Made by a program: the position numbers and the translations under genes. The notes beneath the pieces were generated by a model. The model was not told the DNA's origin. It did no database searches and saw only the letters and a list, made by a program, of their open reading frames with translations. 64,000 nt of DNA. It comes from Pseudomonadota bacterium (GTDB taxonomy: Bacteria > Pseudomonadota > Gammaproteobacteria > Eutrophobiales > Eutrophobiaceae). The DNA lies in contig JABFGI010000001.1 of assembly GCA_013112535.1 (NCBI GenBank), positions 581,243 to 645,242 on the forward strand, read 5' to 3'. Below, one piece after another: positions 15,459 to 40,557 of the stretch (within the stretch, counting starts at the first letter, position 1; each line of letters opens with the position of its first letter).

Positions 15459-18400
15459 TTATGCTGACTGCCACGCTGTGGAAATAACCGATTGCACATC
15501 CTCCTGAAGTGCTTCAGGTACATCGAGTGAACCACAGTGAGAAACATTAAAGACAGCCATCGCATCAACAAGTTGCTGCACATTCGTTTCTAACAATACC
15601 GACCCATCCGATAATTCAATACGTTCAATTCGCGTATCCCTATTACTGTGCCATCCCCAACTCCAACCATGACTGTGTTTATACCAGTCTTCTATCGTCA
15701 CTTGATCTTCTGTACCGATAATGCCGATATTCAAATCTTTATGATCGCGCCAAAGCCATAAATCGTCTGCCCCGATACTTTCGCCAAAACGTAATGTGTC
15801 TTCACCCGCGTTTTCTTCTATCTCATCAACATCATCACCGCGGTTAAAGAGGTAAGTATCATTACCACGGCCACCTTCAATAACGTCATCACCAGTACCA
15901 CCGTGCAAGATGTCATTACCGCCATCACTGAAGAGCCAGTCGTGACCCGCTCCGCCTTCGTGTATGTCATCACCGGCACCGCTGTAAAGAGCATCATCTC
16001 CTTCGCCACCACTTAAAGTGTTGTTGCCGTACCAGTCTTCGAGCACATCATTACCACTGCCGCCATTTAGAGCATCATCACCCTGACCACCTAGTATCCA
16101 GTCACGACCTGCATTGCCATTCAGGATATTGTTACCAAACCATTCTTGTAAGTGATCGTTACCATTACCGCCATTAAGTACATCATCACCTGAATTACCA
16201 AAGAGCCAGTCATGTCCATTACCGCCGTTGAGAGTATCATTGCCATCGCCACCATGAAGATGGTCGTTGCTACCTCCGCCATTAAGTATATCATTCCCGT
16301 CTTCGCCAAAGAGCCAGTCAGGACGATTAAAACCATTGATAATATCTTTCTCATCTGTCCCCAGCAGAAAGTTAGAGTGATTATTACCGTTAATGACATT
16401 GGTGATATCGAGAGTAAAGGAATCACTAACACTTAACCCTTCGATATCAGTAACCGTCACTTTAATATCAAGCAGTCCGGATACATCGAATGGGACATTA
16501 CCACTGAAAGTTCGGGTTGCAGCATCAAAGCTTAACCACGCTGGTAAGGCACTACCGTCATTTAAGCTTGCTGTGTAACGTAAGGTGTCCCCATGAATAA
16601 AGTCATCATCATCGAAAATATCAGAGGGAAGTTGGTAACTAAAGCTAACACCTTCTATTGTTGCCTGATCATCAACTGGATTTGCCAACACTGGATTATC
16701 GTTAACATTGTTAATCACCACTCTAAATTCATCATCAGTACTCAATCCAGCACTGTCTGTTGCTGTGACTTTGATATCAAGATTCCCGACATCATCATTA
16801 TCAGGGGTGCCACTGAAGGTTTGGGTTGCCGCATCAAACGTTAACCAACCCGGTAAGTTACTATCATCAGAGAGTGACGCGCTATAATTTAAGGTGTCGT
16901 TTGCATCGTCCACATCATCAAAGGTGTTTGCGGGGATTGTGAAACTGAACGGTGCATCTTCATCGATAACCTGATCGGTAATCACATTGCTCAGTGTTGG
17001 TGTATCGTTCGTCCCGTTAATGGTGATTTGAACGGTGCTCGCTGTACCGTCGACACTGCTTGCATTAAACGTTTCACTAACACTGTCACCGACATTTAAA
17101 CTATCAAACGACTCGTTCGCATTAAACGTCCAGTTACCTGCTACATCAATATCAAACGTACCGATGGCGCCAACGGTATTACTTGCGGTGAACACATTGT
17201 CCTCGTTATCCACATCACTACTGGTTAATGTTCCAGCTGTTGTCAGCACTGCATCAGTTTCATTTAAAGTTTCAACGGCATTGCTGACGGTTGCAGCGTC
17301 ATTAACATTATTAACAGTCAAGCTGAATTCATCGCTGACACTGTGACCGCCTGTATCAGTTACTGTTACTTTGACCTCAATATTATCAACATCATCATTC
17401 ACGGGTGTGCCACTAAAGGTTTGTGTGGCTGCATCAAAACTTAACCAACTCGGCAATGCAGAATCATCACTTAATGTGGCGTTGTATATTAATGTATCGC
17501 CAACATCCGGATCACTAAACGTATTCGCTGGTATTGTAAATGAAAAAACGTGATCTTCATCTGTTGCTTGATCCGATATCCCTGCATCGACGAAAGGGGC
17601 ATTATTGATATTTGTGTTTCCATTAATAGTGAGACGAAATGACTCATCGACACTTAAGCCGCCAGCATCCGTTGCTATCACATTAATTTCAATAACGCCC
17701 ACATCGTTATCATCTGGAGTGCCGTTAAAGGTTTGTGTTGCAGCATCAAAGCTTAGCCAATCTGGTAATACTTCGCCGTTTTTTAATGTCGCTGTATAAG
17801 ACAATGCATTACCTGACTCTGGATCGATAAAGGCATCATCAGGAATAACATAACTAAAAATAGCATCCTCATCGACAACCTGGTTTTCTAGTCCGGTATT
17901 AACACCAGGAGCGAGATTTATATCATTACCACTAATCAGTCCTTCAATATCATCATTATTGAGCGTAAGAGCGTTGTCACCTGTAAATATAAATTGTTCA
18001 ATAACAGCATTGGAATCATCAAACCAGCCCGTCACGGTAACCGTCTGACCAGCGCCAAAAGAAAGAATTAAATCATCGCCCGATTGACTAACATTTAAAT
18101 CAGTTACAGATAATCCTTCCCCAAAGAAAACGCGATCAAAACCACCTACTTCTAATATCGTATCGTGACCATCATTAGCATTAATAATATAGGTGTCATC
18201 ACCAACGCCACCTTCAAGATGGTCATTTCCAGTGTTTCCTATAATTATATCGTTTCCTTCTCCACCTATAACAATATCGTTTCCTTCGCCGCCATCCAGT
18301 TCATCATCGCCTTCGCCACCATCAAGTGTGTCATTACCAGCAAAGCCGTTTATACGATCGACGATTTCTGTACCATTTAATTCATCGTCACCTGCTGTAC

Positions 18401-21400
18401 CATCAAAACCAAAACCTAAATCCAGAACATCCTGATAAGTCAGAGTAAAACTGTCATTAAACGTAATACGTTCAAATAAATCAGGAATACCAGATAAGTC
18501 ATTGGTGTCAACATCAGTAAAATACAATTGAATTTGTCCATCAAAAATATCGATAATTAAAGAACCTCTGTGTATGGAAATATCACTGCGAGTAACGTGT
18601 TTCTTTGTATAAATATCAAACGCATTAATACCGTGAAACGAAGATGGCAGAAGAAGCGTATACCGTCCTTTTGAAGCAGTATAGGGATTAGATTGAGAAC
18701 CAATTTTTACTGTATTTAAACTGCTGCTGGACGTTTGAATAGTATAATTTCGGTTGATGTTTTGTTCCCCGGAAAGATTGATAACATTTTCACCTGAACC
18801 GGCATTAATAATCGCAGTTTCGACATCACCGACATTAATAATGTCATTGCCATCAAGCGTAAAGATTTTTTGATCACTTTCTACTACATCAACAATGTCA
18901 CTTTCATTACTACCCAAGACGTCAATTTCATTTCGAAAATCCTTGCCATAAACCAGGTAGCTTTCACCGTTATTAAGATTAGCTCCCGCAGCACTAACAA
19001 GTAAATCATCAAAACCATCACCATTAACATCTCCGGCAGCACTGACAACGCTTCCACTTTGGTCTCCGCTAATATTACCGGTTAACTGAAACCCGTTTTG
19101 TCCATCTAGTTCATCTAAATTAACAGAAGTCTGAATACCTCCCTGCTTTCCATATACCAGATAAGAAATACCCACATTATTTTCGCTATTGACTGTTTTA
19201 TCTGACATGCCGATTAAAATATCACTCAGGCCATCACCATTCACATCACCTGCCGCGCTTACAGAAGAAATACTGCCGCCTGATAAACTGAATAATGATA
19301 AAGCGCCTGCACCTAAACTATTAGCATTAACATCAGCAGTAAAATTATTTTCCTTACCATAAATGACATGAGCCGTATTACTGTGATGAACAACAAGCAG
19401 GTCATCAATACCATCACCATTAATATCCCCCACACCTTCTGCACGCATAGTTTCAGCATTTGTCTCATACATTCCGTTTAATCGGAAACCATTGCTGCCA
19501 TCTAGTGAATTAATATCAAATGAATTCGAAAAACCTGTTTGACCAAGAACAACATAGCCTAACGGTAAATTAAATCCGCCTAATGGATCGCGCGGATCAG
19601 GAAGACCGGGTACGGCTTCAGGCGCATAAACAAAAAGATCATCCAGACCATCGTTGTTGATGTCACCAATGTCGGTTACGGTTGTGCCTGTTTCACTGTT
19701 GGCAACATTACCGGAAAAACTAAAACCATTACTGCCATCTAAAACATCAATGTCGATGTTATAACTTGAAAAATCAGATCGACCAAAGACAATAGAAACG
19801 TCACCGGTTGTTCCGTTTGTGTCTGGTGTACCGATGATTACATCATCAAACCCATCTCCATTGATATCACCTGCCCCATCCACCTGAATATTACTGTTAC
19901 TGTTAATCGCATTGCCAGTAAGTACAATTCCTTGATCAGCACTAAGGTTATTCAAGTCTATATCACTACTAAAACCACTCTCATGACCAAATAACACAGC
20001 ACTTTGTCCCGGGTTTAGATCCGAACTCATTCCAATGATTACATCATCAAACCCGTCACCATTCACATCGCCTGCACTTTTTATAGAATTAATCGCTAAA
20101 CTGGAAGAAAAATGAACGCCGTTATTGCCATTCAAATTTGTTAAATCGAATGTTGAATTCAGTTGTTCTTGCTGACCAAAAACCAAATAACTTCCCTGAG
20201 TTTGATTACCTTGTATTAAAACATCATCAAACCCGTCCCCATTGACATCACCCGCAGAGGCTACAGCTTGCCCACCATTTTCAAAAATTACTTCCTGGCT
20301 TAATGAAATCGTCCCCACTACTTCGGTACCGCGTATTGTTAGCGATAAAGTGGAGTTTGATATTTCACCACTGTCATCACTCATAGTGTAATCGACCAAC
20401 ACAGTAGCAACATCACCAGCAATTAAATCAGTAAAATCATTGCCCGGATCAAATTTAAGCTGATTGTTCTCGATTGACACGCTGCCTTTGTTGCCTTGAA
20501 GGGTAACAGTGTCTAATGAAAAATTTGAAACATCATCATCCGGATCGAGATCGGTATCATTAGCAAGCACATCAATTAAAAACGCATTGTTTGCAGCAGC
20601 TGGAAATAATCGTGCAGCTATACCGCCATCAAGGTCACCACTACTGCTTGAACTAGTCTGCCAGACTGCTACCAGACCACCATCGCTGAGTAAGTTAATA
20701 GAAGGTCGCTGTTGGTTATTATCAACAAGTTCATTAACAAGAAACGTGGTAACTTGTCCCTGATCATTAAATCTTGCTGCAATAACAGCAAGATCATCCT
20801 GATCATCACCCTGGTCAGCAAAGCTATTCCAGCTTACAATAAAGCCGTTGTTACTATCAGCAACAACGCTGTAATCCCTGCCAAATAATTCAAAATCAGA
20901 ATTAAGTAATATCGCTTGTCCCTGTGAGATACCTGAACTATTAAATCGTTGACCATAGATATTTTCAGTAGCACTGGAATAAATCCAGGTCACCATATAG
21001 TCGTCACCGGATAAAGCCACGACTTCCGGAGAAATCATTTGCGAAGGCTGAATAGCGACGGATAAAGGGATTTCTCCTGTTAGTGCATTACCTTGATTAT
21101 CATAAAAGCGAGCACTTAAAGGCGTTTCATCTTGTAGTTCAACTGAGATTGGACGATTGTGATCATTCGATTCCCAAACAATGGCAAAGCTGCCATCTGT
21201 TTGCACAGCAACTTTAGGCATATCCTGGTTATCAAATGAAAACGTATTAACTTCAAATTCATTACCCACTTTTACTCCATTCGCATCAAAACGTTGACCG
21301 GCTATTTCACTTTCGGTAGTTGCTCCACCTTCATGTTCTGTCATCCAAACAGCAATAAAACCGCCATCAGGTAAACCAGCAATGTCGATTGATGTTTGAA

Positions 21401-31868: not shown

Positions 31869-32181
31869 ATAGAGACCCCATAGATTGTTCTGTAAAGGCA
31901 TAAGGTGGATAACGCCGACCGCCGCGTTGACTTGAGATCCCAAAATGGGATCTCAAACTTTCGTGTTCTTCTTCGCTAAGCTGAAACATAAAATCTTCCG
32001 GAAAACGTTCTATATTTCTTTTCACGGCTCTGGTTAGAATTCTAGTTTCAACCTCATATAGACTTGCCAAATCAGCATCTAACAAAACTTTTTGACCACG
32101 TATAAATAAAATGCTGTTGGCTATACTTTGCAAAGGTATCAGCTTAGTTGTTGAAGTGATTTTCTTTTTCTTAGCCATCAT
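31834..32181 (-). pseudogene. ORF6N (KilA-N-like) DNA-binding domain protein, C-terminally truncated and fused to IR copy R6
   Basis: ORF6N core [42 protein letters not shown]...[14 protein letters not shown]. The last 10 codons ([11 protein letters not shown]) are encoded by the IR. Start overlaps the hlyD stop. Confidence 0.6.
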
Positions 32182-33518
32182 TACCTCTCCCTGACACTCT
32201 CATCCTTATAACGAAGCAAAGGACTTAATAGATATTCTATTAAACGTCGTTTACCAAGATTAACTTCGACTGTTACCGCCATGCCGGGCGTTAGGTTGAC
32301 TATCTTTTCTTTTACTTGCATTGTTGTTTGATGCATCTTGACACGCATGGCATAGACCAGCCCCAGGTTTTCATCCGGTGTTGCGTCATTTGAAACGTTT
32401 AATATTTCCGCATCGACTAATCCGTACTTAGTAAACGGAAAAGTTTCGACTTTAATGGCAGCTGCCTGTCCTTCTTGAACGAAACCAATGTCTTTATTCG
32501 GCAACCATGCTTCGACTTCAACCGGATCATCATGCGGTATAATGTGCATGAGTTCTTGTGCAGGCGTGACAACACCACCAATCGTATGTATCGCCAACTG
32601 GTGCACTGTGCCTGTAACAGGAGATGTTAAATTTTGTAAGGTAACGCGTTTATCAGCTTTAATGACTTCCTGATTAAATGCCGAGATACGATTTTCGATA
32701 TCAGTGAGTTCGGTCAATAGTGTTTTTTCAAACTCGGCTTTTTGTGCGGCGAGTCGTTGATTGATATTAGCTATAGCTGAATCCACCATGCGTGAATTAT
32801 TTTTTTGTACATTACGTTCTTGTACTTGTTCGATGCGTTCTTGCTCTAACTCCAGCCACTGCACACGTGGCACCATGTTGTCTTTTAATAAATCTTTGAG
32901 TGATTTTGCTCTTTCTGTAATAAGCGGGATGGTTGAATCGAGTTGTTTGATACGTTCGGCTGTTGCGCTGTGCTCTGCCTGGCGTTGTTTTTTTTCGTCT
33001 TTTAGGGCTTCAAGTAAGGAATAATATTCATGCAATTGTTTCTCAACTCTGTCTTGTTGTAATTTTATTTGTGCTGGAGTTGCATCACTTAATTCCGAGA
33101 ATGTATCTTTTTCTGCTTTACCATCTACTTTATTAAGAATGGTTTGTATACGTGCCCGATCCAGTTTTAATGCAAGCTGTTGATCTTTAGTCTGCATTTG
33201 ATCAGCATCCGTTAAGGTTGGATCAAGTTCAATTAACACGTCACCGGCTTGAACATGGTCACCTTCTTTAACATATATCTCTCTGACGATACCTGTTTCG
33301 AGCGGCTGAATAATCTTCACACGACTACTTGGGACAATCTTTCCCATCGCTACGCTGACAATATCAATTTGACCGATGCATGCCCATGCAACGCCAATAC
33401 TAAAAAAAGTCACTATCGCCCAGACAATATAACGTGCCATCGGTAACGGTGGTGTTTGCTGGATTTCTAACGCAGCAGGTAGAAATTCAAGTTCGTTATT
33501 TGTAATTTGGCTTTTCAT
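32181..33518 (-). CDS. Type I secretion periplasmic adaptor (HlyD family)
   Basis: 445 aa; N-terminal cytoplasmic and TM segment, long coiled-coil, lipoyl and beta-barrel motifs typical of HlyD. Confidence 0.85.
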
Positions 33519-34114: not shown

Positions 34115-36256
34115 TCATGTTGGCGCCACCATGCCTAATTGATGAGAATAAAGCTTGTTGTAATACCCTTGTAACTCCATTAACTCAGCATGTGTTCCAC
34201 CTTCAACGATCTGCCCTTTATCGATCACAATAATATTGTCGGCTTCTCGAACAGCACTAAGTCTATGTGCAATAATAAAAACCGTTCGCCCTTTACAGAT
34301 GTAACGCATGTTTTGATGAATGATATGCTCGGATTCATAATCCAATGCACTGGTGGCTTCATCAAAGATTAAAACTTTGGGATTCGTAATCAGTGCGCGC
34401 GCAATAGCAATGCGCTGGCGTTGGCCACCGGAAAGATTACAGCCGTGTTCGCCAACTTCATTGTCATAGCCTTCAGGTAGTTCGAGTATAAATTCATGTG
34501 CGCCTGCCATCTTGGCTGCTTGTACGACGCGCTCCATTGGCATGGCCGGATCGCTTAATGAGATATTTTCGCGAACGGAACGATTAAAGAGAAAGTTTTC
34601 CTGTAGAACGACACCGATATTGCGTCTTAACCAAACGGTATCGACCATGGCGAGATCTACACCATCGACTAACACGCGGCCACTTTGCGGAACATATAAA
34701 CGTTGAATGAGTTTAGTTAAGGTACTTTTACCCGAGCCCGAACGACCAACAATACCAATCACTTTGCCCGCAGGCACATGCAACGACACGTTGCGTAAAA
34801 TTTCCGGACTATCAGGACGGTATCGAAACGTTACGCCTTCAAAAGTAACTCGTCCTTCCAGCTCTGGTAAGGAGGCACGACCGGGACTATACGCAGGTTC
34901 AGGTTGCGCATTTAAAATATCGCCTAATCGTTCAACTGATATTCCTGCTTGCTGAAACTCTTGCCAGAGTTGTACCAAGCGCAATATAGGACCACTGACA
35001 CGACCGGCTAACATATTAAAGGCAACTAATTGTCCAACTGATAACTCGCCATTAATAACTAAACGCGCACCTACCCACAATATAAGGAGCACTGTCACTT
35101 TATTAATAAAGGAAGCTATCTGACTGGCAATATTACCCAGGTTAGTTGCTTTGAAACTCGATGAAACATAACCGGCAAGTTGTTCTTCCCATTGTCGCTG
35201 GCTTTGTGGCTCTACGGCACTGGTTTTAATTGTTTCAAATCCATTTACGGATTCGACTAAAAAGGATTGATTTTCTGCGCCGCGATTAAATTTCTCATGC
35301 AAACGTGCTCGCAAGATGGGAGTAATGATGATTGCAAGAATAATATAAAACGGAATAGCGCCGAGCACGACATAGGTTAAGACAGGACTATAAAGATACA
35401 TGACGGCAAAAAAGACAAGCGTAAAAAATAAATCAATCACCAGCGTTAACGCTGAGCCCGTAATAAAGTTTCTAATACTATCCAATTCCCTGACTCGTGC
35501 GACAATATTACCGACTCGCCGAGCTTCAAAATAACTTAAAGGGAGACGCATCAGGTGCCGAAACAAATCGGCGCCTAACGTCACATCGATGCGACTGGTG
35601 GTATGAGAAAACACATACGTTCGTAACGCATTCAATATCACATCAAATAATGAAACAACAAGTAAACCAAAAGCCAGCACATCGAGCGTGGTTAATCCTC
35701 GATGAACTAATACTTTATCAATAACAACTTGGAAGAATAGCGGAGTAATCAGTGCAAAAATTTGTATAAAGAATGAAGCTAATAAAACTTCTAGCAGGAG
35801 CTTCTTATATTTAAGTATCGCCGGAATAAACCAGGAAAAATCAAACTTCTTTAACTCAGCAAGAATCCCGGCACGCTTTGTAACCAGTATAAGATGACCA
35901 TTCCAACGCACTTGAAACTCTTCAACAGTTAAACTTTCCGGACCTTGATTAAGCGGGTCTTGAATAAGAACTTTATCTTCTACCTGTTGCGCCAGAATAA
36001 AGTAATGGCCGTCCTTGTGCTGGGCGATAGCGGGAAGCCGGGTTTTGGCAATTCTTTCTTGAGTACTGGATATGGCCTTTGCCTTCAGGCCGACCGATTT
36101 TGCCCCGCGCAGAATTTCTGACTCGGTAAAATGCTGCCCTGATTGTCCGTAATGATGTTTGAGCTGCCCCGGATCGGCTGGCATACCATGCAGTCGCGAC
36201 AGCATGACTAGACAGACCAATCCTGAGTCTACCTGCTCAGGAACTTCCTGATCCAA
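34115..36256 (-). CDS. Type I secretion ABC transporter (HlyB family) with N-terminal degenerate C39-like domain (CLD)
   Basis: 713 aa. N-terminal CLD with DSGLVCLVML, where Ser replaces the catalytic Cys of the C39 CG motif as in RTX exporters. 6-TM domain. Walker A GRSGSGKST, signature LSGGQRQR, Walker B ILIFDEATSALD. Confidence 0.9.
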   Translation of the reverse strand: MDQEVPEQVDSGLVCLVMLSRLHGMPADPGQLKHHYGQSGQHFTESEILRGAKSVGLKAKAISSTQERIAKTRLPAIAQHKDGHYFILAQQVEDKVLIQDPLNQGPESLTVEEFQVRWNGHLILVTKRAGILAELKKFDFSWFIPAILKYKKLLLEVLLASFFIQIFALITPLFFQVVIDKVLVHRGLTTLDVLAFGLLVVSLFDVILNALRTYVFSHTTSRIDVTLGADLFRHLMRLPLSYFEARRVGNIVARVRELDSIRNFITGSALTLVIDLFFTLVFFAVMYLYSPVLTYVVLGAIPFYIILAIIITPILRARLHEKFNRGAENQSFLVESVNGFETIKTSAVEPQSQRQWEEQLAGYVSSSFKATNLGNIASQIASFINKVTVLLILWVGARLVINGELSVGQLVAFNMLAGRVSGPILRLVQLWQEFQQAGISVERLGDILNAQPEPAYSPGRASLPELEGRVTFEGVTFRYRPDSPEILRNVSLHVPAGKVIGIVGRSGSGKSTLTKLIQRLYVPQSGRVLVDGVDLAMVDTVWLRRNIGVVLQENFLFNRSVRENISLSDPAMPMERVVQAAKMAGAHEFILELPEGYDNEVGEHGCNLSGGQRQRIAIARALITNPKVLIFDEATSALDYESEHIIHQNMRYICKGRTVFIIAHRLSAVREADNIIVIDKGQIVEGGTHAELMELQGYYNKLYSHQLGMVAPT

Positions 36257-36640: not shown

Positions 36641-36971
36641 TGGTGCCCGGGGCCGGAATCGAACCGGCACGCCTGTTAAGGCGAGGGATTTTCTTACCAA
36701 CTACTATTTTCATAGCTGCATTACTTAAAACGCATTTGTGGTCTGGACTTTCTCTTTACCTTATTTTAAAAATCAAACGTAGGCAGGAGCCGTCAAGTCT
36801 CTACACTTTACTTAGCATCTATAAATCTAAACTAAGGCTTAGCTCGGGATTGCCACCACCATTTTCATGCTGAGGTTTCCCCGAATTTGACTCCATTCAC
36901 ACCAAGCGTTTCCGACCTGGGTGCTCAAATTATTCTAAGTCCCTTGCGTCTACCAATTCCGCCACCCGGGC
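36641..36971 (-). tRNA. leuZ: tRNA-Leu(UAA) interrupted by a 244-nt group I intron between anticodon positions U34 and A35. Exon 1 is 36937-36971, exon 2 is 36641-36692, and the spliced tRNA is 87 nt.
   Basis: Exons give GCCCGGGTGGCGGAATTGGTAGACGCAAGGGACTT|AAAATCCCTCGCCTTAACAGGCGTGCCGGTTCGATTCCGGCCCCGGGCACCA, with a long Leu-type variable arm. The E. coli-like order pgsA-glyW-cysT-leuZ is preserved. Confidence 0.75.
36693..36936 (-). ncRNA. Group I (IC3-like) self-splicing intron within tRNA-Leu(UAA)
   Basis: Conserved cores GTCAAATTCGGGGAAACC, GGCAATCCCGAGCTAAGCC and GTGTAGAGACTTGACGGCTCCTGCCTACG, closely resembling the Azoarcus/cyanobacterial tRNA introns. The 5' exon ends in U and the intron ends in G (omega-G). 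Confidence 0.7.
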
Positions 36972-37005: not shown

Positions 37006-37079
37006 TGGAGGCTGAGCCCGGAATTGAACCGAGGTACACGGTTTTGCAAACCGCTGCATAACCACTCTGCCACTCAGCC
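37006..37079 (-). tRNA. cysT: tRNA-Cys(GCA)
   Basis: GGCTGAGTGGCAGAGTGGTTATGCAGCGGTTTGCAAAACCGTGTACCTCGGTTCAATTCCGGGCTCAGCCTCCA. Confidence 0.9.
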
Positions 37080-37125: not shown

Positions 37126-37150
37126 AAAAACCCCGGAATAGCCGGGGTTT
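37126..37150 (-). terminator. GC-rich hairpin CCCCGG-CTATT-CCGGGG followed by T5 (minus strand) between tRNA-Gly and tRNA-Cys. Possibly a terminator, attenuator or processing site.
   Basis: 6-bp GC stem plus U-tract on the transcribed strand. Confidence 0.4.
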
Positions 37151-37158
37151 CCAAATTC

Positions 37159-37233
37159 TGGAGCGGGAAACGAGATTCGAACTCGCGACCCCAACCTTGG
37201 CAAGGTTGTGCTCTACCACTGAGCTATTCCCGC
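37159..37233 (-). tRNA. glyW: tRNA-Gly(GCC)
   Basis: GCGGGAATAGCTCAGTGGTAGAGCACAACCTTGCCAAGGTTGGGGTCGCGAGTTCGAATCTCGTTTCCCGCTCCA. Confidence 0.9.
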
Positions 37234-37288
37234 AAAAAAGAGCGCCTATTGTAGCCACGGCGATTGTTCTGTCAATCAAATTACGGAT

Positions 37289-37837
37289 TTATTCTTTCAG
37301 CTTTGGCCATGCCGCTAAAAGGTACTGAAACATTGAGATTAAAGTTAAAAATGCGGCGATATACAACAGAATCAGTCCAATTTGGTAAACCGGTAGTCCA
37401 AATACCGAATTTTCAAAAATCAAAAAGCCGAGCGCCACCATTTGGGCAATCGTTTTTATCTTTCCCAGAACAGAAACCGCGACTTTACTTCGTGCTCCAA
37501 CTTCAGCCATCCATTCACGAAGCGCTGAAACGGTAATTTCTCGTCCAATAATAACTGCTGCGGCTAAAGCCAGATAAATATTCGGGTTTTGCTGGACTAA
37601 TAGTACCAGAGCGGCAGCAACCATTAATTTGTCTGCGACCGGATCAAGAAAAGCGCCTAATGATGAGGTCTGGTTTAACTTTCTTGCCAGATAGCCGTCC
37701 AGAATATCGGTCACGGCGGCCAAAACAAAAATGATACAGGCAACTAAATTATTCCATTCAAATGGCAAATAGAATACCAGTACAAATACGGGAATAAGCA
37801 AGATGCGTAACAGTGTTAATTGATTAGGTATATTCAT
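37289..37837 (-). CDS. pgsA: CDP-diacylglycerol--glycerol-3-phosphate 3-phosphatidyltransferase
   Basis: CDP-alcohol phosphatidyltransferase motif D-x2-DG-x2-AR (DILDGYLARK)...DPVADK; 182 aa; follows uvrC. Confidence 0.85.
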   Translation of the reverse strand: MNIPNQLTLLRILLIPVFVLVFYLPFEWNNLVACIIFVLAAVTDILDGYLARKLNQTSSLGAFLDPVADKLMVAAALVLLVQQNPNIYLALAAAVIIGREITVSALREWMAEVGARSKVAVSVLGKIKTIAQMVALGFLIFENSVFGLPVYQIGLILLYIAAFLTLISMFQYLLAAWPKLKE

Positions 37838-39660
37838 TAATTATGGAATGTGTCATATATTTTTTTAGCGAGACTCTTGTTTATTCCCGAAACCATCGCA
37901 ATATCATCGACGCCCGCTCTCGCTACGCCTTGTATTCCGCCAAAATGTTTTATTAGACTTTGTCGTCGTTTATTACCAATACCTTCTATTTCTTCGAGTT
38001 TTGATCGCCCACGCTTCTTTTTACGTCGCTGTCGATGTGCTGTTATGGCAAACCGATGTGCCTCATCCCTGATATGTTGAATTAAATGCAACGCGGGTGA
38101 CGAACTATCACAGTCTATCGTTTTATTTTCAAGTGCGAGGATTAAATTCTCAAGTCCTGGTTTTCTTGATGGACCTTTTGCCACACCCAATATGGGAATA
38201 TGAGTCAGTTGCAATTCATAGAGCTCTTTTTTAGCAACACCAATCTGGCCTTTACCACCGTCTATCAATATCAGATCAGGTAATCTCGCATTTTCTTTGA
38301 CCAGCCGAGTATAGCGACGTCTTATTACCTGGGACATTGCTGCATAGTCATCACCCTGGGTTATATTTTCAATATTGAACTGGCGATACCTGGAATTCAC
38401 CGGGCCATCCGGGCCAAACACAACACATGAGCCGACTGTTGCTTCACCCTGAGTATGACTGATATCAAAACATTCCATATGTTCTATAGGTTCTTTGAAA
38501 GACAACAATTTTTGTAAAGCATCAAAGCGTTTATGCTGGCTCTTGCTGCCTGCTATTTTTTGTTTAATAGTCAGATCAACATTCTCTTTTGCCATCGTTA
38601 ACCACTTTAACCGTTCCCCTCTTACCTTCGCTTTTAACTTTATTTTCTTTTCTGCTTTTTCTGAAATAACATTTTCTATTAATTCTGAATCATCAAAATC
38701 ATGACTAATAAATATTTCAGCAGGAATTTTTTGTTGCGAACCATCATTTAAATAAAACTGTGTGATAAAAGCTTTCACTAATTCTGATTCGGTTTGTCCT
38801 TCACTATTTTTTGGATAAAAGTTTCGGTTTCCAAGATTTAGTCCTGAACGAATAAAGACTAACTGTATGCAAGCCTGACTATCATTGATGGCACAAGCAA
38901 TAATATCTATATCACCACCTTCAGACGTTATATGCTGTTTCTCCTGAACATGGCGTAATGATCGAATTTGATCGCGCAGTCTTGCTGCAACTTCAAACTC
39001 CAATGCATCAGATGCTTTTTGCATAGGCTCGGTTAAAGCTTTAATTACAGCTTCGTTCTTTCCTTCAAGAAATAACGTCGCGTTTTTAATATCGCGTTGA
39101 TAATCTTCTTGCGAGATTGCGCCAACGCAAGGTGCTGTACAGCGTTTAATCTGGTATTGCAAACACGGTCGGGAACGATTGGCAAACACACTGTCTTCAC
39201 AAGAACGGACTAAAAATAATTTTTGCAATAAGTTTAATGTGCTTCTGACAGAACCTGCACCGGGATAAGGGCCAAAGAACTTGCCTTTACCTTTTAATGC
39301 GCCTCGATGATAGCGAAACAAAGGATATTCATGATCAGTCGACAAATAAAGATAGGGGTAACTTTTGTCATCACGAAAAAGAATATTGTATCGAGGTTTG
39401 TAACTTTTTATTAAATTGTTTTCGAGTATTAAGGCTTCGTTTTCTGTATGCGTTACTGTGACTTCAATATTTTTAATCTGTTTCACCATAACTTGCGTCT
39501 TGGGCGAGTCTGATTGACTACGATTGAAGTAACTTGAAACGCGTTTTTTTAAATTTTTTGCTTTACCAACATAGATGACTTTACCTTCTTCATCCTGCAT
39601 GCAATAAACACCAGGACGACTGGTAAGATTTTTAAGAAAAGAGTCTAAATCAAAAGACAT
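37837..39660 (-). CDS. uvrC: Excinuclease ABC subunit C
   Basis: N-terminal GIY-YIG (GVYCMQDEEGKVIYVGKAKNL), UvrB-binding and C-terminal HhH regions; 607 aa. Confidence 0.9.
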   Translation of the reverse strand: MSFDLDSFLKNLTSRPGVYCMQDEEGKVIYVGKAKNLKKRVSSYFNRSQSDSPKTQVMVKQIKNIEVTVTHTENEALILENNLIKSYKPRYNILFRDDKSYPYLYLSTDHEYPLFRYHRGALKGKGKFFGPYPGAGSVRSTLNLLQKLFLVRSCEDSVFANRSRPCLQYQIKRCTAPCVGAISQEDYQRDIKNATLFLEGKNEAVIKALTEPMQKASDALEFEVAARLRDQIRSLRHVQEKQHITSEGGDIDIIACAINDSQACIQLVFIRSGLNLGNRNFYPKNSEGQTESELVKAFITQFYLNDGSQQKIPAEIFISHDFDDSELIENVISEKAEKKIKLKAKVRGERLKWLTMAKENVDLTIKQKIAGSKSQHKRFDALQKLLSFKEPIEHMECFDISHTQGEATVGSCVVFGPDGPVNSRYRQFNIENITQGDDYAAMSQVIRRRYTRLVKENARLPDLILIDGGKGQIGVAKKELYELQLTHIPILGVAKGPSRKPGLENLILALENKTIDCDSSSPALHLIQHIRDEAHRFAITAHRQRRKKKRGRSKLEEIEGIGNKRRQSLIKHFGGIQGVARAGVDDIAMVSGINKSLAKKIYDTFHN

Positions 39661-39667
39661 GCTTAAA

Positions 39668-40312
39668 TTATAATTTCAATTCAGTTTTGATTTTTTTAAA
39701 TACATCGCTAAACATTTCTTCGGTTAAGCGTTTTGTATTGGTGTTGTAACGACTGCAATGATAGGAATCCATTATTTGCCTTCCGTCATCAAGCTTATGA
39801 CGTTTGCCATGGACGAAAGGAAAATCAGATTGCTTTAAGCCTAATGCTTTAATTACTGCTTTGTGAGAGATTAAACCCAAACAAAGAATGATAGCTTTTT
39901 TGTCTATCGTTTTTAATTCTTCATGTAAATAAGCATTACAGGTATTAATTTCCTTTCCAATTGGCTTGTTTTCAGGCGGTAGGCATTTAACGGCATTGGT
40001 TATTCGTGCATGTTTTAATTTCAAACCATCTTTCAAGTCAGTTGATATTGGTTTATTACTAAACCCATATTGATACAGCATCTCATAAAGAATAATGCCA
40101 GCATGATCACCAGTAAATGGTCTGCCGGTTGCATTTGCGCCGTGCATTCCCGGAGCAAGACCGACAATCAGTAGCTTTGGTTTGCTTACACCAAATGGAG
40201 GAACTGGCCGTGCATGATAATCAGGGTATTTCTTTCGATTATCTATTAAAAAGTCGTTCAAGCGTGGACAAAGACTACAATCCAATTCGAATTGTGAGGG
40301 TGTATTTGGCAT
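39668..40312 (-). CDS. Uracil-DNA glycosylase, family 4
   Basis: Motif A-like GLAPGMHGANATGRPFTG and family 4 4Fe-4S Cys pattern (CSLCPRL...); 214 aa. Confidence 0.8.
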   Translation of the reverse strand: MPNTPSQFELDCSLCPRLNDFLIDNRKKYPDYHARPVPPFGVSKPKLLIVGLAPGMHGANATGRPFTGDHAGIILYEMLYQYGFSNKPISTDLKDGLKLKHARITNAVKCLPPENKPIGKEINTCNAYLHEELKTIDKKAIILCLGLISHKAVIKALGLKQSDFPFVHGKRHKLDDGRQIMDSYHCSRYNTNTKRLTEEMFSDVFKKIKTELKL

Positions 40313-40467: not shown

Positions 40468-40557
40468 TGGCGGAGAGGGTGGGATTCGAACCCACGGGAC
40501 CGATAAAGGACCGCTGGTTTTCAAGACCAGTGCATTCGACCACTCTGCCACCTCTCC
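40468..40557 (-). tRNA. tRNA-Ser(UGA)
   Basis: GGAGAGGTGGCAGAGTGGTCGAATGCACTGGTCTTGAAAACCAGCGGTCCTTTATCGGTCCCGTGGGTTCGAATCCCACCCTCTCCGCCA, with a long variable arm. Confidence 0.85.

What the first reader, a model, noticed from the sequence alone, without database searches (positions are those of the whole stretch)
36641..36971. Group I intron in the anticodon loop of tRNA-Leu(UAA) in a gammaproteobacterial glyW-cysT-leuZ cluster
The leuZ-position tRNA is split into 35-nt and 52-nt exons by 244 nt inserted between U34 and A35. This is the classic cyanobacterial/plastid tRNA-Leu(UAA) intron site. The insert contains the conserved group I catalytic core: GTCAAATTCGGGGAAACC, GGCAATCCCGAGCTAAGCC and GTGTAGAGACTTGACGG. 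It follows a 5'-exon U, and the intron ends in a 3' terminal G. Outside cyanobacteria, bacterial tRNA group I introns are sporadic (Agrobacterium tRNA-Arg, Azoarcus tRNA-Ile, a few others). One in tRNA-Leu(UAA) of an AT-rich gamma-proteobacterium is notable for the intron-early versus horizontal-transfer debate.
Basis: partly seen in the sequence, partly recalled or inferred. Interest (0 to 1): 0.7.

Follow-up and report, generated by a model that had tools for sequence, protein, structure and literature searches.

The report
Self-splicing intron inside a leucine tRNA gene
The leucine tRNA gene (anticodon UAA) of this marine gammaproteobacterium is interrupted by a complete 244-base group I intron, but the same intron occurs at the same site in well over a hundred bacterial species, so this is an ordinary new example of a known mobile element.

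Summary
On the minus strand, a 35-nt exon (36971-36937), a 244-nt insert (36936-36693) and a 52-nt exon (36692-36641) together make a tRNA-Leu(UAA) split between U34 and A35. The evidence for a group I intron:
- Rfam Intron_gpI scores 62.4 bits (E = 2e-13).
- ARAGORN in intron mode reports the same boundaries.
- The joined exons fold as a canonical class II tRNA-Leu with CCA.
- Across 30 homologues, 88.6% of pair cells are standard pairs, against 30-45% in slid controls.

The claim that this is notable does not hold. One pattern scan found the same intron and site in at least 120 species, including Alpha-, Beta- and Gammaproteobacteria, Acidobacteriota and Bacteroidota. Another found at least 120 viral contigs. 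The literature already lists this class in Pseudomonadota and in Beggiatoaceae.

The closest introns are gammaproteobacterial (about 80-90% identity). A cyanobacterial reference is 67.5% identical.

At the same uvrC-pgsA-Gly-Cys-Leu locus, close relatives carry no intron, a different short intron, or a 692-nt version with an antisense HNH endonuclease gene. That patchiness marks a mobile element.

Verdict: a real, probably functional new member of a known kind, of low novelty.

The parts
36937..36971 (-). tRNA-Leu(UAA) 5' exon, 35 nt. Covers the acceptor 5' strand, the D arm, the anticodon-stem 5' strand, and C32 U33 U34. U34 (36937) is the U(-1) of the 5' splice site.
   Evidence: ARAGORN with introns allowed. 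The exon is identical in relatives L123-L126.
36693..36936 (-). Group I intron, 244 nt, with no open reading frame. The terminal (omega) G is at 36693.
   Evidence: Rfam RF00028 at 62.4 bits, E = 2e-13, over 36946-36729. ARAGORN gives the intron boundaries. Helices are mapped and covariation is counted. tblastn with the relatives' HNH protein finds nothing in the window.
36641..36692 (-). tRNA-Leu(UAA) 3' exon, 52 nt. Covers A35 A36, the anticodon-stem 3' strand, the long variable arm, the T arm, the acceptor 3' strand, discriminator A and an encoded CCA.
   Evidence: The variable-arm stem keeps its pairing through compensatory changes among WINDOW, L123, L125 and L126.
36924..36939 (-). P1, the helix that holds the 5' splice site. 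Exon CUU plus intron AGA (36939-36934) pairs with the internal guide UUUGAG (36929-36924). The U•G wobble is 36937•36926. U 36929-36927 could also pair with the first three A of the 3' exon to form P10 (inference).
   Evidence: The U•G, U-A and C-G pairs are invariant in 30 of 30 homologues.
36902..36920 (-). P2 hairpin, 7 bp with one bulged U, closed by a GAAA tetraloop (36912-36909).
   Evidence: Six of 7 pairs show double (compensatory) changes across homologues.
36889..36894 (-). P3 5' strand (GGAGUC). It pairs with 36791-36786.
   Evidence: P3 is paired in 100% of cells, and 5 of 6 pairs show compensatory changes.
36844..36884 (-). The P4-P5-P5a domain. P4 is 36884-36879 with 36849-36844. 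P5 and P5a span 36875-36853, with a GAAA loop and one G·G mismatch.
   Evidence: P4 is 99.4% paired. The P5a extension varies among homologues.
36805..36843 (-). P6 (GCU at 36843-36841 with AGU at 36807-36805) and the P6a hairpin (36836-36811). In relatives L123 and L124, the P6a loop is where a 154-aa HNH endonuclease gene sits on the opposite strand. The window has only a 16-nt loop there.
Evidence: The innermost P6 pair covaries cleanly: U-A in 17, C-G in 11 and G-C in 2 sequences.
36796..36801 (-). P7 5' strand, G(A)GACU with a bulged A. It pairs with 36749-36745 (AGUCC) and contains the presumed guanosine-binding G-C pairs. Together with P3 it forms the core pseudoknot.
   Evidence: The two G-C pairs are invariant in 30 of 30 and the outer two pairs show compensatory changes.
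36786..36791 (-). P3 3' strand (GGCUCC).
36757..36785 (-). P8 hairpin (UGCCU with AGGUA). It is followed by J8/7, AAGAGAA (36756-36750).
   Evidence: Three of 5 pairs show compensatory changes.
36745..36749 (-). P7 3' strand (AGUCC).
36696..36742 (-). The P9 domain. P9 is ACCA (36742-36739) with UGGU (36699-36696). P9a is 36734-36717. P9b is 36716-36703 with a GAAA tetraloop.
   Evidence: The window departs from the >=90% consensus only at three P9b positions, and those changes are compensatory.
37006..37079 (-). tRNA-Cys(GCA), the middle gene of the cluster, 34 nt upstream of tRNA-Leu.
37159..37233 (-). tRNA-Gly(GCC), the first gene of the cluster.
37248..37275 (-). Promoter-like site, TTGACA-16-TACAAT (11 of 12 matches), 15 nt upstream of tRNA-Gly. 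It is the likely start of a Gly-Cys-Leu precursor transcript (inference).
   Evidence: This is a consensus match only; the number of sites found in the region is no higher than in shuffled sequence.

Best explanation
This is a functional tRNA-Leu(UAA) gene interrupted between U34 and A35 by a complete group I intron with no open reading frame. The intron has the architecture of the bacterial tRNA-intron type (IC3-like).

Proposed mechanism, inferred from the established chemistry of group I introns:
1. The Gly-Cys-Leu cluster is transcribed as one precursor.
2. The intron folds into P1-P9 around the P3/P7 pseudoknot.
3. Free guanosine bound in P7 attacks the phosphate after U34, which lies in the U•G wobble pair of P1.
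4. The terminal G (36693) then occupies the same site, and the freed 3' OH of U34 attacks the 3' splice site.
5. The anticodon loop is ligated to CUUAAAA, and normal end-processing yields mature tRNA-Leu(UAA).

Evolutionary reading (inference). The intron belongs to a mobile lineage circulating among Gammaproteobacteria and other phyla. Some members of that lineage carry an HNH homing-endonuclease gene, antisense, in the P6a loop. The window's copy is the form without that gene, either because it lost the gene or because it never gained it.

Shown here: the boundaries, the structure, its conservation, and the distribution across species. Inferred: catalysis, co-transcription of the cluster, and the direction of endonuclease-gene gain or loss.
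For: - Rfam Intron_gpI scores 62.4 bits, E = 2e-13.
- Every helix P1, P2, P3, P4, P5/5a, P6/6a, P7, P8 and P9/9a/9b forms in the window sequence, with one G·G mismatch in P5a.
- On 30 homologues, 88.6% of pair cells are standard pairs against 30-45% when partners are slid. Thirty-nine of 65 pairs carry double changes, and 0 of 500 shuffles reach the observed values.
- U•G at the splice site and the P7 G-C pairs are invariant. The terminal G is present in 101 of 102 homologues.
- The window departs from the >=90% consensus only at three P9b positions, and these are compensatory. The ribozyme is therefore not decayed.
- UUA makes up about 40% of leucine codons in the window's genes, so this tRNA is heavily needed.
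- Among relatives the exons are identical except in the variable arm, which keeps its pairing through compensatory changes.
- Mobility, from the same locus in relatives: a 692/691-nt intron with an HNH gene in L123 (UvrC 96% identical) and L124 (89%); a different 238-nt intron in L125; no intron in L127 (91%), L126 (84%), L132/L133 (82%), L135 (75%) and L136 (72%).
- The window intron is 96/101 and 107/115 identical to the L123 intron on either side of that gene.
- The HNH protein family is 55-74% identical across Gammaproteobacteria and Acidobacteriota and matches Pfam HNH_3.
Against: - No transcript or biochemical data exist, so splicing is inferred.
- Only 64 kb of the genome is visible, so a second, uninterrupted tRNA-Leu(UAA) gene elsewhere cannot be excluded.
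- P5a has a G·G mismatch, and the base of P6a has a C·U mismatch where most homologues have C-G.
- The minimum-free-energy fold alone is only moderately better than shuffles (z = -2.26) and does not reproduce P7, as expected for a pseudoknot.
- Subgroup assignment (IC3) rests on resemblance to the Azoarcus and cyanobacterial seed sequences, not on a subgroup-specific model.
Confidence: 0.9

Rival explanations
1. A dead relic. The intron no longer splices, this gene is a pseudogene, and an intact tRNA-Leu(UAA) elsewhere in the genome does the work.
For: Only 64 kb of the genome is visible, and no expression data exist. In one related lineage (L128-L131, UvrC 87% identical) tRNA-Leu is absent from this locus. 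The gene can therefore lie elsewhere or be dispensable at this position.
Against: The catalytic core is intact. The window departs from the family consensus only at three compensatory positions. The exons are perfectly tRNA-like, and their variable arm evolves by compensatory change among relatives. UUA is about 40% of leucine codons. No other tRNA-Leu is found in the window.
Confidence: 0.05
2. An ancient, vertically inherited intron shared with cyanobacteria and plastids. It would be a relic of a pre-divergence tRNA-Leu intron and so bear on the intron-early idea.
For: The insertion site (34/35) and overall architecture match the cyanobacterial intron. The same uvrC-pgsA-tRNA context carries the intron in several distant Gammaproteobacteria (L018, L028, L032, L062, L063, L065, L086, L089, L109, L112).
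Against: - Among close relatives (UvrC 72-96% identical), presence is patchy: five sampled lineages have no intron and three carry one, in three different forms.
- The window intron is closer to that of a distant gammaproteobacterium (L032: 89.6% intron identity, UvrC only 54%) than to that of a near relative (L125: 79% intron identity, UvrC 89%).
- L124 and L125 are 100% identical for 6702 nt and diverge exactly at the first bases of the intron.
- An HNH homing-endonuclease gene travels with the intron across phyla at 55-74% protein identity.
- Identity to the cyanobacterial seed sequence is only 67.5%.
Confidence: 0.05
3. The intron is real, but in vivo splicing depends on a host protein or is conditional. 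It would then act as a regulator of tRNA-Leu(UAA) supply rather than as a neutral passenger.
For: Nothing specific. The mismatches in P5a and at the base of P6a and the AT-rich peripheral loops could lower stability. Some group I introns need chaperones (general knowledge).
Against: The core and the GAAA tetraloops of L2, L5a and L9b are conserved as in self-splicing relatives. No adjacent gene suggests a maturase.
Confidence: 0.08
4. An assembly artefact or chimera that joins a tRNA half to unrelated DNA.
For: Many relatives are metagenome assemblies. L124 and L125 diverge exactly at the intron.
Against: Both exons flank the insert precisely and splice in silico to a perfect tRNA. The same arrangement recurs in independent assemblies from NCBI, JGI and ENA, in more than 100 genomes and in 102 viral contigs.
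Confidence: 0.01

Closest known systems
[quoted passage not shown]
   Same: It has the same host gene and the same insertion site (U34/A35). It shares U(-1), the terminal G, the P1-P9 architecture without a P5abc extension, and the conserved core motifs. The Nostoc intron self-splices in vitro (used as the positive control in PMC13011429).
   Different: It is only 67.5% identical over aligned positions to the Synechococcus elongatus seed sequence. The 3' domain differs: here it is ACCAC...UGGUAAG with P9a and P9b, as in non-cyanobacterial members. One P6 pair is U-A rather than C-G. The host is a heterotrophic or chemotrophic marine gammaproteobacterium.
Proteobacterial tRNA-Leu(UAA) introns. 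These include 'Ncf2.Leu.3Ug' and the 72 'Leu.3Cg' introns of Williams 2020, the Pseudomonadota 34/35 introns of PMC13011429, and, from my memory, the gamma-proteobacterial subsurface isolate of Vepritskiy et al. 2002 (J Bacteriol 184:1481), which I could not retrieve.
   Same: It has the same site, the same 3' domain and the same length class. In the genome scan, the introns most similar to the window's among the loci returned are gammaproteobacterial: L032 at 89.6%, L117 (Methylobacter) at 83.6% and L112 at 81.5% over aligned positions. In several of these hosts (L032, L112, L018 and others) the intron sits in the same uvrC-pgsA-tRNA context.
   Different: This is a different host lineage, whose nearest named relatives are MAGs labelled 'Thiotrichaceae bacterium'. 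It has U, not C, at position -1.
Interrupted tRNA-Leu-TAA of Beggiatoa 'BOGUAY' and Candidatus Thiomargarita nelsonii Bud S10 (Flood et al. 2016, PMC4853749, citing MacGregor et al. 2013)
   Same: These are putative group I introns in the same tRNA gene, in organisms of the same nominal family (Thiotrichaceae/Beggiatoaceae).
   Different: The Thioploca and Thiotrichaceae introns recovered here (L078, L057) are only 76-78% identical to the window's over aligned positions. In the alignment they have a much shorter P5/P5a region. The window's intron is therefore not simply the family's vertical copy.
Azoarcus tRNA-Ile(CAU) intron (structural archetype of subgroup IC3)
   Same: It has the same compact architecture and conserved J3/4, P4, P6, P7 and J8/7 sequences, and GAAA tetraloops on P2 and P9 (seed alignment).
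   Different: It sits in a different tRNA at a different site (36/37). Identity is 63%. The window lacks the canonical CCUAAG...UAUGG receptor in P5.

Membership tests
Group I intron (Rfam RF00028) | Covariance-model score above the curated gathering threshold | tested here: met
   62.4 bits against a threshold of 50, E = 2e-13, with the full model 1-253 matched.
Group I intron (Rfam RF00028) | [quoted passage not shown] | tested here: met
   U 36937 pairs with G 36926. The pair is U•G in 30 of 30 homologues.
Group I intron (Rfam RF00028) | Terminal (omega) G at the 3' end of the intron | tested here: met
   G at 36693. A terminal G is present in 101 of 102 homologous split tRNA-Leu genes.
Group I intron (Rfam RF00028) | Conserved core (P3-P8) with the P3/P7 pseudoknot, supported by covariation | tested here: met
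   P3 is 100% paired with 5 of 6 pairs compensatory, and P7 is 98% paired. For the whole structure, 88.6% of cells are paired against 30-45% when slid, and 0 of 500 shuffles reach the observed values.
Group I intron (Rfam RF00028) | Guanosine-dependent self-splicing | not testable with these tools
   This needs an in vitro transcript with GTP and Mg2+, or RNA data from the organism.
Bacterial tRNA-Leu(UAA) intron, class Leu.3Ug (IC3-type) | Insertion between positions 34 and 35 of a UAA anticodon, with exons that splice to a canonical tRNA-Leu | tested here: met
   ARAGORN -i reports gactt-intron-aaaat. The 87-nt product is a class II tRNA-Leu(taa) with CCA.
Bacterial tRNA-Leu(UAA) intron, class Leu.3Ug (IC3-type) | Homology to catalogued members of the class | tested here: met
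   The window aligns along its whole length with 29 other split tRNA-Leu(UAA) introns. It shares the P9 domain and 3' end with seed Ncf2.Leu.3Ug of Williams 2020.
Bacterial tRNA-Leu(UAA) intron, class Leu.3Ug (IC3-type) | Formal subgroup assignment (IC3) with subgroup-specific covariance models | not tested
   Subgroup models (GISSD or Group1IntronDatabase) are not available here. The assignment rests on resemblance to the Azoarcus and Synechococcus seed sequences.
Cyanobacterial/plastid trnL intron lineage | Nearest relatives are cyanobacterial or plastid introns | tested here: not met
   The nearest relatives among the loci recovered are gammaproteobacterial (79-90% identity over aligned positions). 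The one cyanobacterial reference is 67.5% identical. Only a single cyanobacterial sequence was compared and no tree was built.
Mobile group I intron carrying a homing endonuclease gene | Endonuclease open reading frame inside the intron | tested here: not met
   The window intron is 244 nt with a 16-nt P6a loop, and tblastn with the relatives' HNH protein finds nothing in the window. Relatives L123 and L124 carry a 154-aa HNH gene, antisense, at that loop.
tRNA pseudogene | Disrupted cloverleaf or decayed intron core | tested here: not met
   The cloverleaf is perfect after in silico splicing. The intron departs from the >=90% consensus only at three compensatory positions.

The most novel reading that the evidence does not exclude
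Among close relatives, this one locus preserves several stages of the homing-endonuclease life cycle:
- an empty site (L127, L126, L132/L133, L135, L136);
- an intron with an intact antisense HNH gene (L123, L124);
- two different introns without that gene (the window and L125).

The same antisense HNH gene family is shared at 55-74% protein identity between Gammaproteobacteria and Acidobacteriota. Split tRNA-Leu(UAA) genes also sit in phage tRNA arrays. If these observations reflect real, recent events, the tRNA-Leu(UAA) intron is an actively homing element that crosses phyla, possibly carried by phages. That would be evidence against treating it as a slowly evolving vertical marker. The window's allele would be a fresh endonuclease-gene loss or a gene-free invasion.
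Probability: 0.5. Interest if true: 0.35.

Novelty: new member of a known kind. Interest (0 to 1): 0.2.

Why it matters
For annotation, standard tRNA finders miss this gene. ARAGORN in default mode did, and Rfam at its gathering threshold missed several clear homologues. The genome would therefore appear to lack tRNA-Leu(UAA), even though UUA is its most used leucine codon.

For biology, the instance itself adds little, because the intron class, its site and its presence in Pseudomonadota are already documented. The modest added value is comparative. The patchy distribution and the co-travelling antisense HNH gene at this conserved locus give a clean natural series for studying intron homing, gain and loss in uncultured marine bacteria.

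Tried and rejected
- **Default ARAGORN** did not see the split tRNA. The intron option was needed.
- **Exact-protein look-up of pgsA** to identify the organism returned only two short Logan contigs that end before the tRNA cluster. I inferred the organism only from UvrC homologues. The nearest named one is a 'Thiotrichaceae bacterium' MAG at 87% identity. Genus and species remain unknown.
- **Literature searches for accession numbers** (JAOQFC, GCA_025491055, SRR7904088, DRR538836) found nothing.
- **Vepritskiy et al. 2002** could not be retrieved. I cite it from memory only.
- **Rfam at gathering threshold** did not report the introns of L123, L124, L125, L032 or L112, although alignment shows them clearly. 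I therefore did not use the Rfam model to score presence or absence and relied on ARAGORN -i plus alignment.
- **A repeat of the tRNA 3' end**, which would mark a classical integrase-type island: none found within 3 mismatches.
- **Terminator scan** around the cluster found none.
- **Minimum-free-energy folding** is only weakly informative (z = -2.26) and cannot represent the pseudoknot. The structure rests on comparative evidence instead.
- **Pseudogene, ancient-vertical-relic and assembly-artefact readings** were considered and rejected. See the rival explanations.
Full report
**1. The observation.**

On the minus strand, 36971-36937 reads GCCCGGGTGGCGGAATTGGTAGACGCAAGGGACTT. Positions 36936-36693 are a 244-nt insert that starts AGAATAATTTGAGC and ends GTTGGTAAG. 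Positions 36692-36641 read AAAATCCCTCGCCTTAACAGGCGTGCCGGTTCGATTCCGGCCCCGGGCACCA.

ARAGORN in default mode reports only tRNA-Cys(GCA) at 37006-37079, tRNA-Gly(GCC) at 37159-37233 and tRNA-Ser(UGA) at 40468-40557. With introns allowed it calls tRNA-Leu(taa) c[36641,36971] with a 244-nt intron after base 35. The in silico spliced 87-mer folds as a flawless class II tRNA-Leu with a long variable arm, discriminator A and CCA.

Rfam Intron_gpI matches 36946-36729 (-) over the whole model at 62.4 bits, above the gathering score of 50, with E = 2e-13.

**2. Context.**

Upstream on the same strand lie a family-4 uracil-DNA glycosylase (39668-40312), uvrC (37837-39660) and pgsA (37289-37837), followed by Gly-Cys-Leu. 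From my own knowledge, pgsA-glyW-cysT-leuZ is the E. coli order.

A promoter-like TTGACA-16-TACAAT site sits 15 nt upstream of tRNA-Gly. It is a consensus match only.

The window is about 39% G+C. UvrC homologues reach 96% identity (an NCBI MAG, GCA_025491055.1). The nearest named one, at 87%, is labelled 'Thiotrichaceae bacterium'. Relatives come from marine and Tara assemblies. The host is therefore an uncultured marine gammaproteobacterium whose genus I could not determine.

UUA is about 40% of leucine codons in the window's genes, so this tRNA is in heavy demand.

**3. Anatomy of the intron.**

I mapped helices by comparison with the seed alignment of Williams 2020 and checked every pair in the window sequence.

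| Helix | Window coordinates (minus strand) | Notes |
|---|---|---|
| P1 | 36939-36934 / 36929-36924 | exon CUU + intron AGA with UUUGAG; U•G at 36937•36926 |
| P2 | 36920-36902 | GAAA loop |
| P3 | 36894-36889 / 36791-36786 | |
| P4 | 36884-36879 / 36849-36844 | |
| P5/P5a | 36875-36853 | GAAA loop, one G·G mismatch |
| P6 | 36843-36841 / 36807-36805 | |
| P6a | 36836-36811 | |
| P7 | 36801-36796 / 36749-36745 | bulged A |
| P8 | 36785-36757 | |
| P9 | 36742-36739 / 36699-36696 | |
| P9a | 36734-36717 | |
| P9b | 36716-36703 | GAAA loop |
| terminal G | 36693 | |

U 36929-36927 could pair with the first three A of the 3' exon to form P10 (inference).

I aligned the window with 29 homologous split tRNA-Leu(UAA) introns and counted this structure, writing P7 as a pseudoknot:
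- 88.6% of 1858 pair cells are standard pairs, against 30-45% when partners are slid by 1-3 columns.
- 39 of 65 pairs carry changes on both sides.
- The covariation score is 0.444 against 0.159 in shuffles, and 0 of 500 shuffles reach the observed value.
- P3 is 100% paired, with 5 of 6 pairs compensatory.
- The U•G splice-site pair and the two P7 G-C pairs are invariant.
- One P6 pair covaries cleanly (U-A 17, C-G 11, G-C 2). This explains the window's unusual GCUAAG...AAGUGUAG spelling.

The window departs from the >=90% consensus at only three positions, all in P9b and all compensatory. The ribozyme is not decayed. The minimum-free-energy fold alone is weakly informative (z = -2.26).

**4. 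How common is it?**

I scanned one genome per species for a pattern that joins the P9 start, the intron's 3' end and the first bases of the 3' exon (CCAGACCACRAA-N20-50-GGKAAG|AAAATCC). The pattern is unique in the window.

They include:
- Alphaproteobacteria: Bradyrhizobium, Rhizobium, Sphingomonas, Caulobacter.
- Betaproteobacteria: Achromobacter, Variovorax, Bordetella, Burkholderia.
- Gammaproteobacteria: Pseudomonas jinjuensis, Stutzerimonas nosocomialis, Lysobacter concretionis, Salinisphaera, Methylobacter, Thioploca, Xanthomonas, Rhodanobacter, and Thiotrichaceae and Thiotrichales MAGs.
- Acidobacteriota, Bacteroidota, Bdellovibrionota and Planctomycetia.

ARAGORN -i finds tRNA-Leu split at the same position in 101 of them: 94 with U(-1) and a terminal G, and 7 with C(-1). 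At least 11 of the gammaproteobacterial loci have pgsA, and usually uvrC, directly upstream, as in the window.

The same pattern also hit at least 120 IMG/VR viral contigs. Of these, 102 have a split tRNA-Leu, some inside arrays of 9-20 tRNA genes.

The literature agrees:
[quoted passage not shown] It treats Leu.3Ug as a classical class and reports 72 Leu.3Cg introns, all in Proteobacteria.
- PMC13011429 (2026) in tRNA-Leu a well-characterised site, found mainly in Pseudomonadota and Cyanobacteriota. It reports HNH endonuclease genes in tRNA-Leu(UAA) introns of Bacteroidota.
- Flood et al. 2016 report an interrupted tRNA-Leu-TAA in Beggiatoa BOGUAY and Thiomargarita.

**5. Relatives at the same locus.**

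I used UvrC homologues at graded identity to fetch the orthologous locus, then scanned it with ARAGORN -i.

| Locus | UvrC identity to window | State of tRNA-Leu(UAA) |
|---|---|---|
| L123 | 96% | 692-nt intron with HNH gene |
| L127 | 91% | no intron |
| L124 | 89% | 691-nt intron with HNH gene |
| L125 | 89% (UvrC protein identical to L124's) | 238-nt intron of a different variant |
| L128-L131 | 87% | no tRNA-Leu at the locus |
| L126 | 84% | no intron; phage-type integrase next to the tRNA |
| L132/L133 | 82% | no intron |
| L135 | 75% | no intron |
| L136 | 72% | no intron |

The long introns differ from the window's by an insertion in the P6a loop. The insertion encodes, on the opposite strand, a 154-aa protein with an HNH motif. 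It matches Pfam HNH_3 at 26.8 bits for L124. Outside that insertion the window is 96/101 and 107/115 identical to L123.

Homologues of this protein lie antisense in the introns of Salinisphaera, a Thiotrichales MAG, several gammaproteobacterial MAGs and Pyrinomonadaceae (Acidobacteriota), at 55-74% identity to the L123 protein. The window holds no trace of it.

The window's intron is more similar to that of a distant gammaproteobacterium (L032: 89.6% intron identity, UvrC 54%) than to that of near relative L125 (79% intron identity, UvrC 89%). It is 67.5% identical to a cyanobacterial seed sequence and 63% to Azoarcus.

L124 and L125 are 100% identical for 6702 nt and diverge at the first bases of the intron, with unrelated DNA downstream.

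Among WINDOW, L123, L125 and L126 the exons are identical except in the variable arm, which keeps its pairing through compensatory changes. L125 also has one T-loop change. Together these are the signatures of a mobile, horizontally moving intron with flanking recombination. They are not those of an ancient vertical relic.

**6. Mechanism.**

The best-supported reading has confidence 0.9. This is a functional tRNA-Leu(UAA) gene whose precursor removes a group I intron by the standard two-step, guanosine-initiated transesterification. Established group I chemistry supplies the mechanism. Structure and conservation are shown here, and catalysis is inferred.

The window's copy is the endonuclease-free form of a lineage that also exists with an antisense HNH homing-endonuclease gene. 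Whether the window lost that gene or never had it is not resolved.

The rivals are unlikely, for the reasons given in the rival explanations: a dead pseudogene with a second gene elsewhere, an ancient vertical relic, protein-dependent or regulatory splicing, and an assembly artefact.

**7. Comparison and novelty.**

The intron works like, and passes every sequence-level membership test for, the bacterial tRNA-Leu(UAA) 34/35 group I intron class of the IC3 type. I did not run formal subgroup models. It is not a member of the cyanobacterial/plastid sub-lineage by similarity, although I compared only one cyanobacterial reference. It does not carry a homing-endonuclease gene.

It is a new member of a known kind. 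Interest is low (0.2). A specialist would not be surprised, and it opens no long-standing question.

The most novel reading still open has probability about 0.5. The locus series would document an active homing cycle that crosses phyla, possibly carried by phages and driven by an antisense HNH gene. That would be of moderate interest.

Noticed in passing
L123:6828-7292 (-) and L124:6796-7260 (-); the equivalent site in the window is the P6a loop, 36831-36816: Close relatives (UvrC 96% and 89% identical) carry a 691-692-nt version of the same intron. It holds a 154-aa HNH endonuclease gene on the strand opposite to the tRNA, inserted in the P6a loop. Homologues at 55-74% protein identity sit antisense in tRNA-Leu(UAA) introns of Salinisphaera, Thiotrichales, other gammaproteobacterial MAGs and Pyrinomonadaceae (Acidobacteriota).
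   Followed up: partly
L124:1-6702 versus L125:1-6702, and downstream: Two assemblies are 100% identical for 6702 nt, covering UDG, uvrC, pgsA, tRNA-Gly, tRNA-Cys and the tRNA-Leu 5' exon. They diverge at the first bases of the intron. After that they have different introns (691 nt with HNH versus 238 nt), a different variable arm in the 3' exon and unrelated downstream DNA. This is either a recombination boundary at the intron or strain mixing in a metagenome assembly.
   Followed up: partly
window 14600-36640: About 22 kb lies between the 3' end of tRNA-Leu and the conserved HU/radical-SAM/AsmA backbone, and it is absent from relatives L124 and L127. It holds a type I secretion HlyB ABC transporter (34115-36256), HlyD (32181-33518), a 3748-aa open reading frame (15459-26705), two Ig-domain proteins and an IS200-like transposase with an HTH domain (29015-29944). 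L123 shares only small pieces of it. L126 has a phage-type integrase island at the same tRNA. No repeat of the tRNA 3' end was found. tRNA-Leu(UAA) looks like a hot spot for variable islands.
   Followed up: partly
L139-L258 (IMG/VR viral contigs), e.g. L227, L253, L177: The same intron-plus-exon pattern occurs in at least 120 viral contigs, and 102 of them have a split tRNA-Leu(taa/caa). Some lie in arrays of 9-20 tRNA genes, as in large phages. None is close to the window's intron (at most about 83% identity over fewer than 100 nt). Phages may be vectors for this intron class.
   Followed up: partly
window 37128-37153 (-), between tRNA-Gly and tRNA-Cys: A G+C-rich hairpin, AAACCCCGG-CTATT-CCGGGGTTT, followed by T-rich sequence, sits between the first two tRNA genes. 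A similar hairpin is present in relative L129. The terminator scan did not call it. Its role is unknown; it could be a processing signal, an attenuator or a repeat element.
   Followed up: no
L128-L131 (UvrC 87% identical, 'Thiotrichaceae bacterium' MAGs): In this lineage the cluster ends after tRNA-Cys. Neither tRNA-Leu exon is found in the locus (up to 5 mismatches or indels allowed), and a 234-aa open reading frame follows.
   Followed up: partly
L088 (CAYMJZ010000082.1, labelled Candidatus Woesearchaeota archaeon): A 3-kb contig binned as an archaeon carries a bacterial-type tRNA-Leu(UAA) with a 656-nt group I intron. This is probably a mis-binned bacterial contig, like the case Williams 2020 describes.
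   Followed up: no
L005, L021, L056, L058, L083, L113 and others: Seven of the recovered split tRNA-Leu genes have C instead of U before the 5' splice site. ARAGORN therefore reads their anticodon as caa. This matches the 'Leu.3Cg' class that Williams 2020 flagged as needing a splicing test.
   Followed up: no
L123, L124, L125, L032, L112: Rfam Intron_gpI at its gathering threshold does not report these clear homologues of the window's intron. It does report the window, L057 and L078. The public model is insensitive for bacterial tRNA introns, so surveys based on it undercount them.
   Followed up: no
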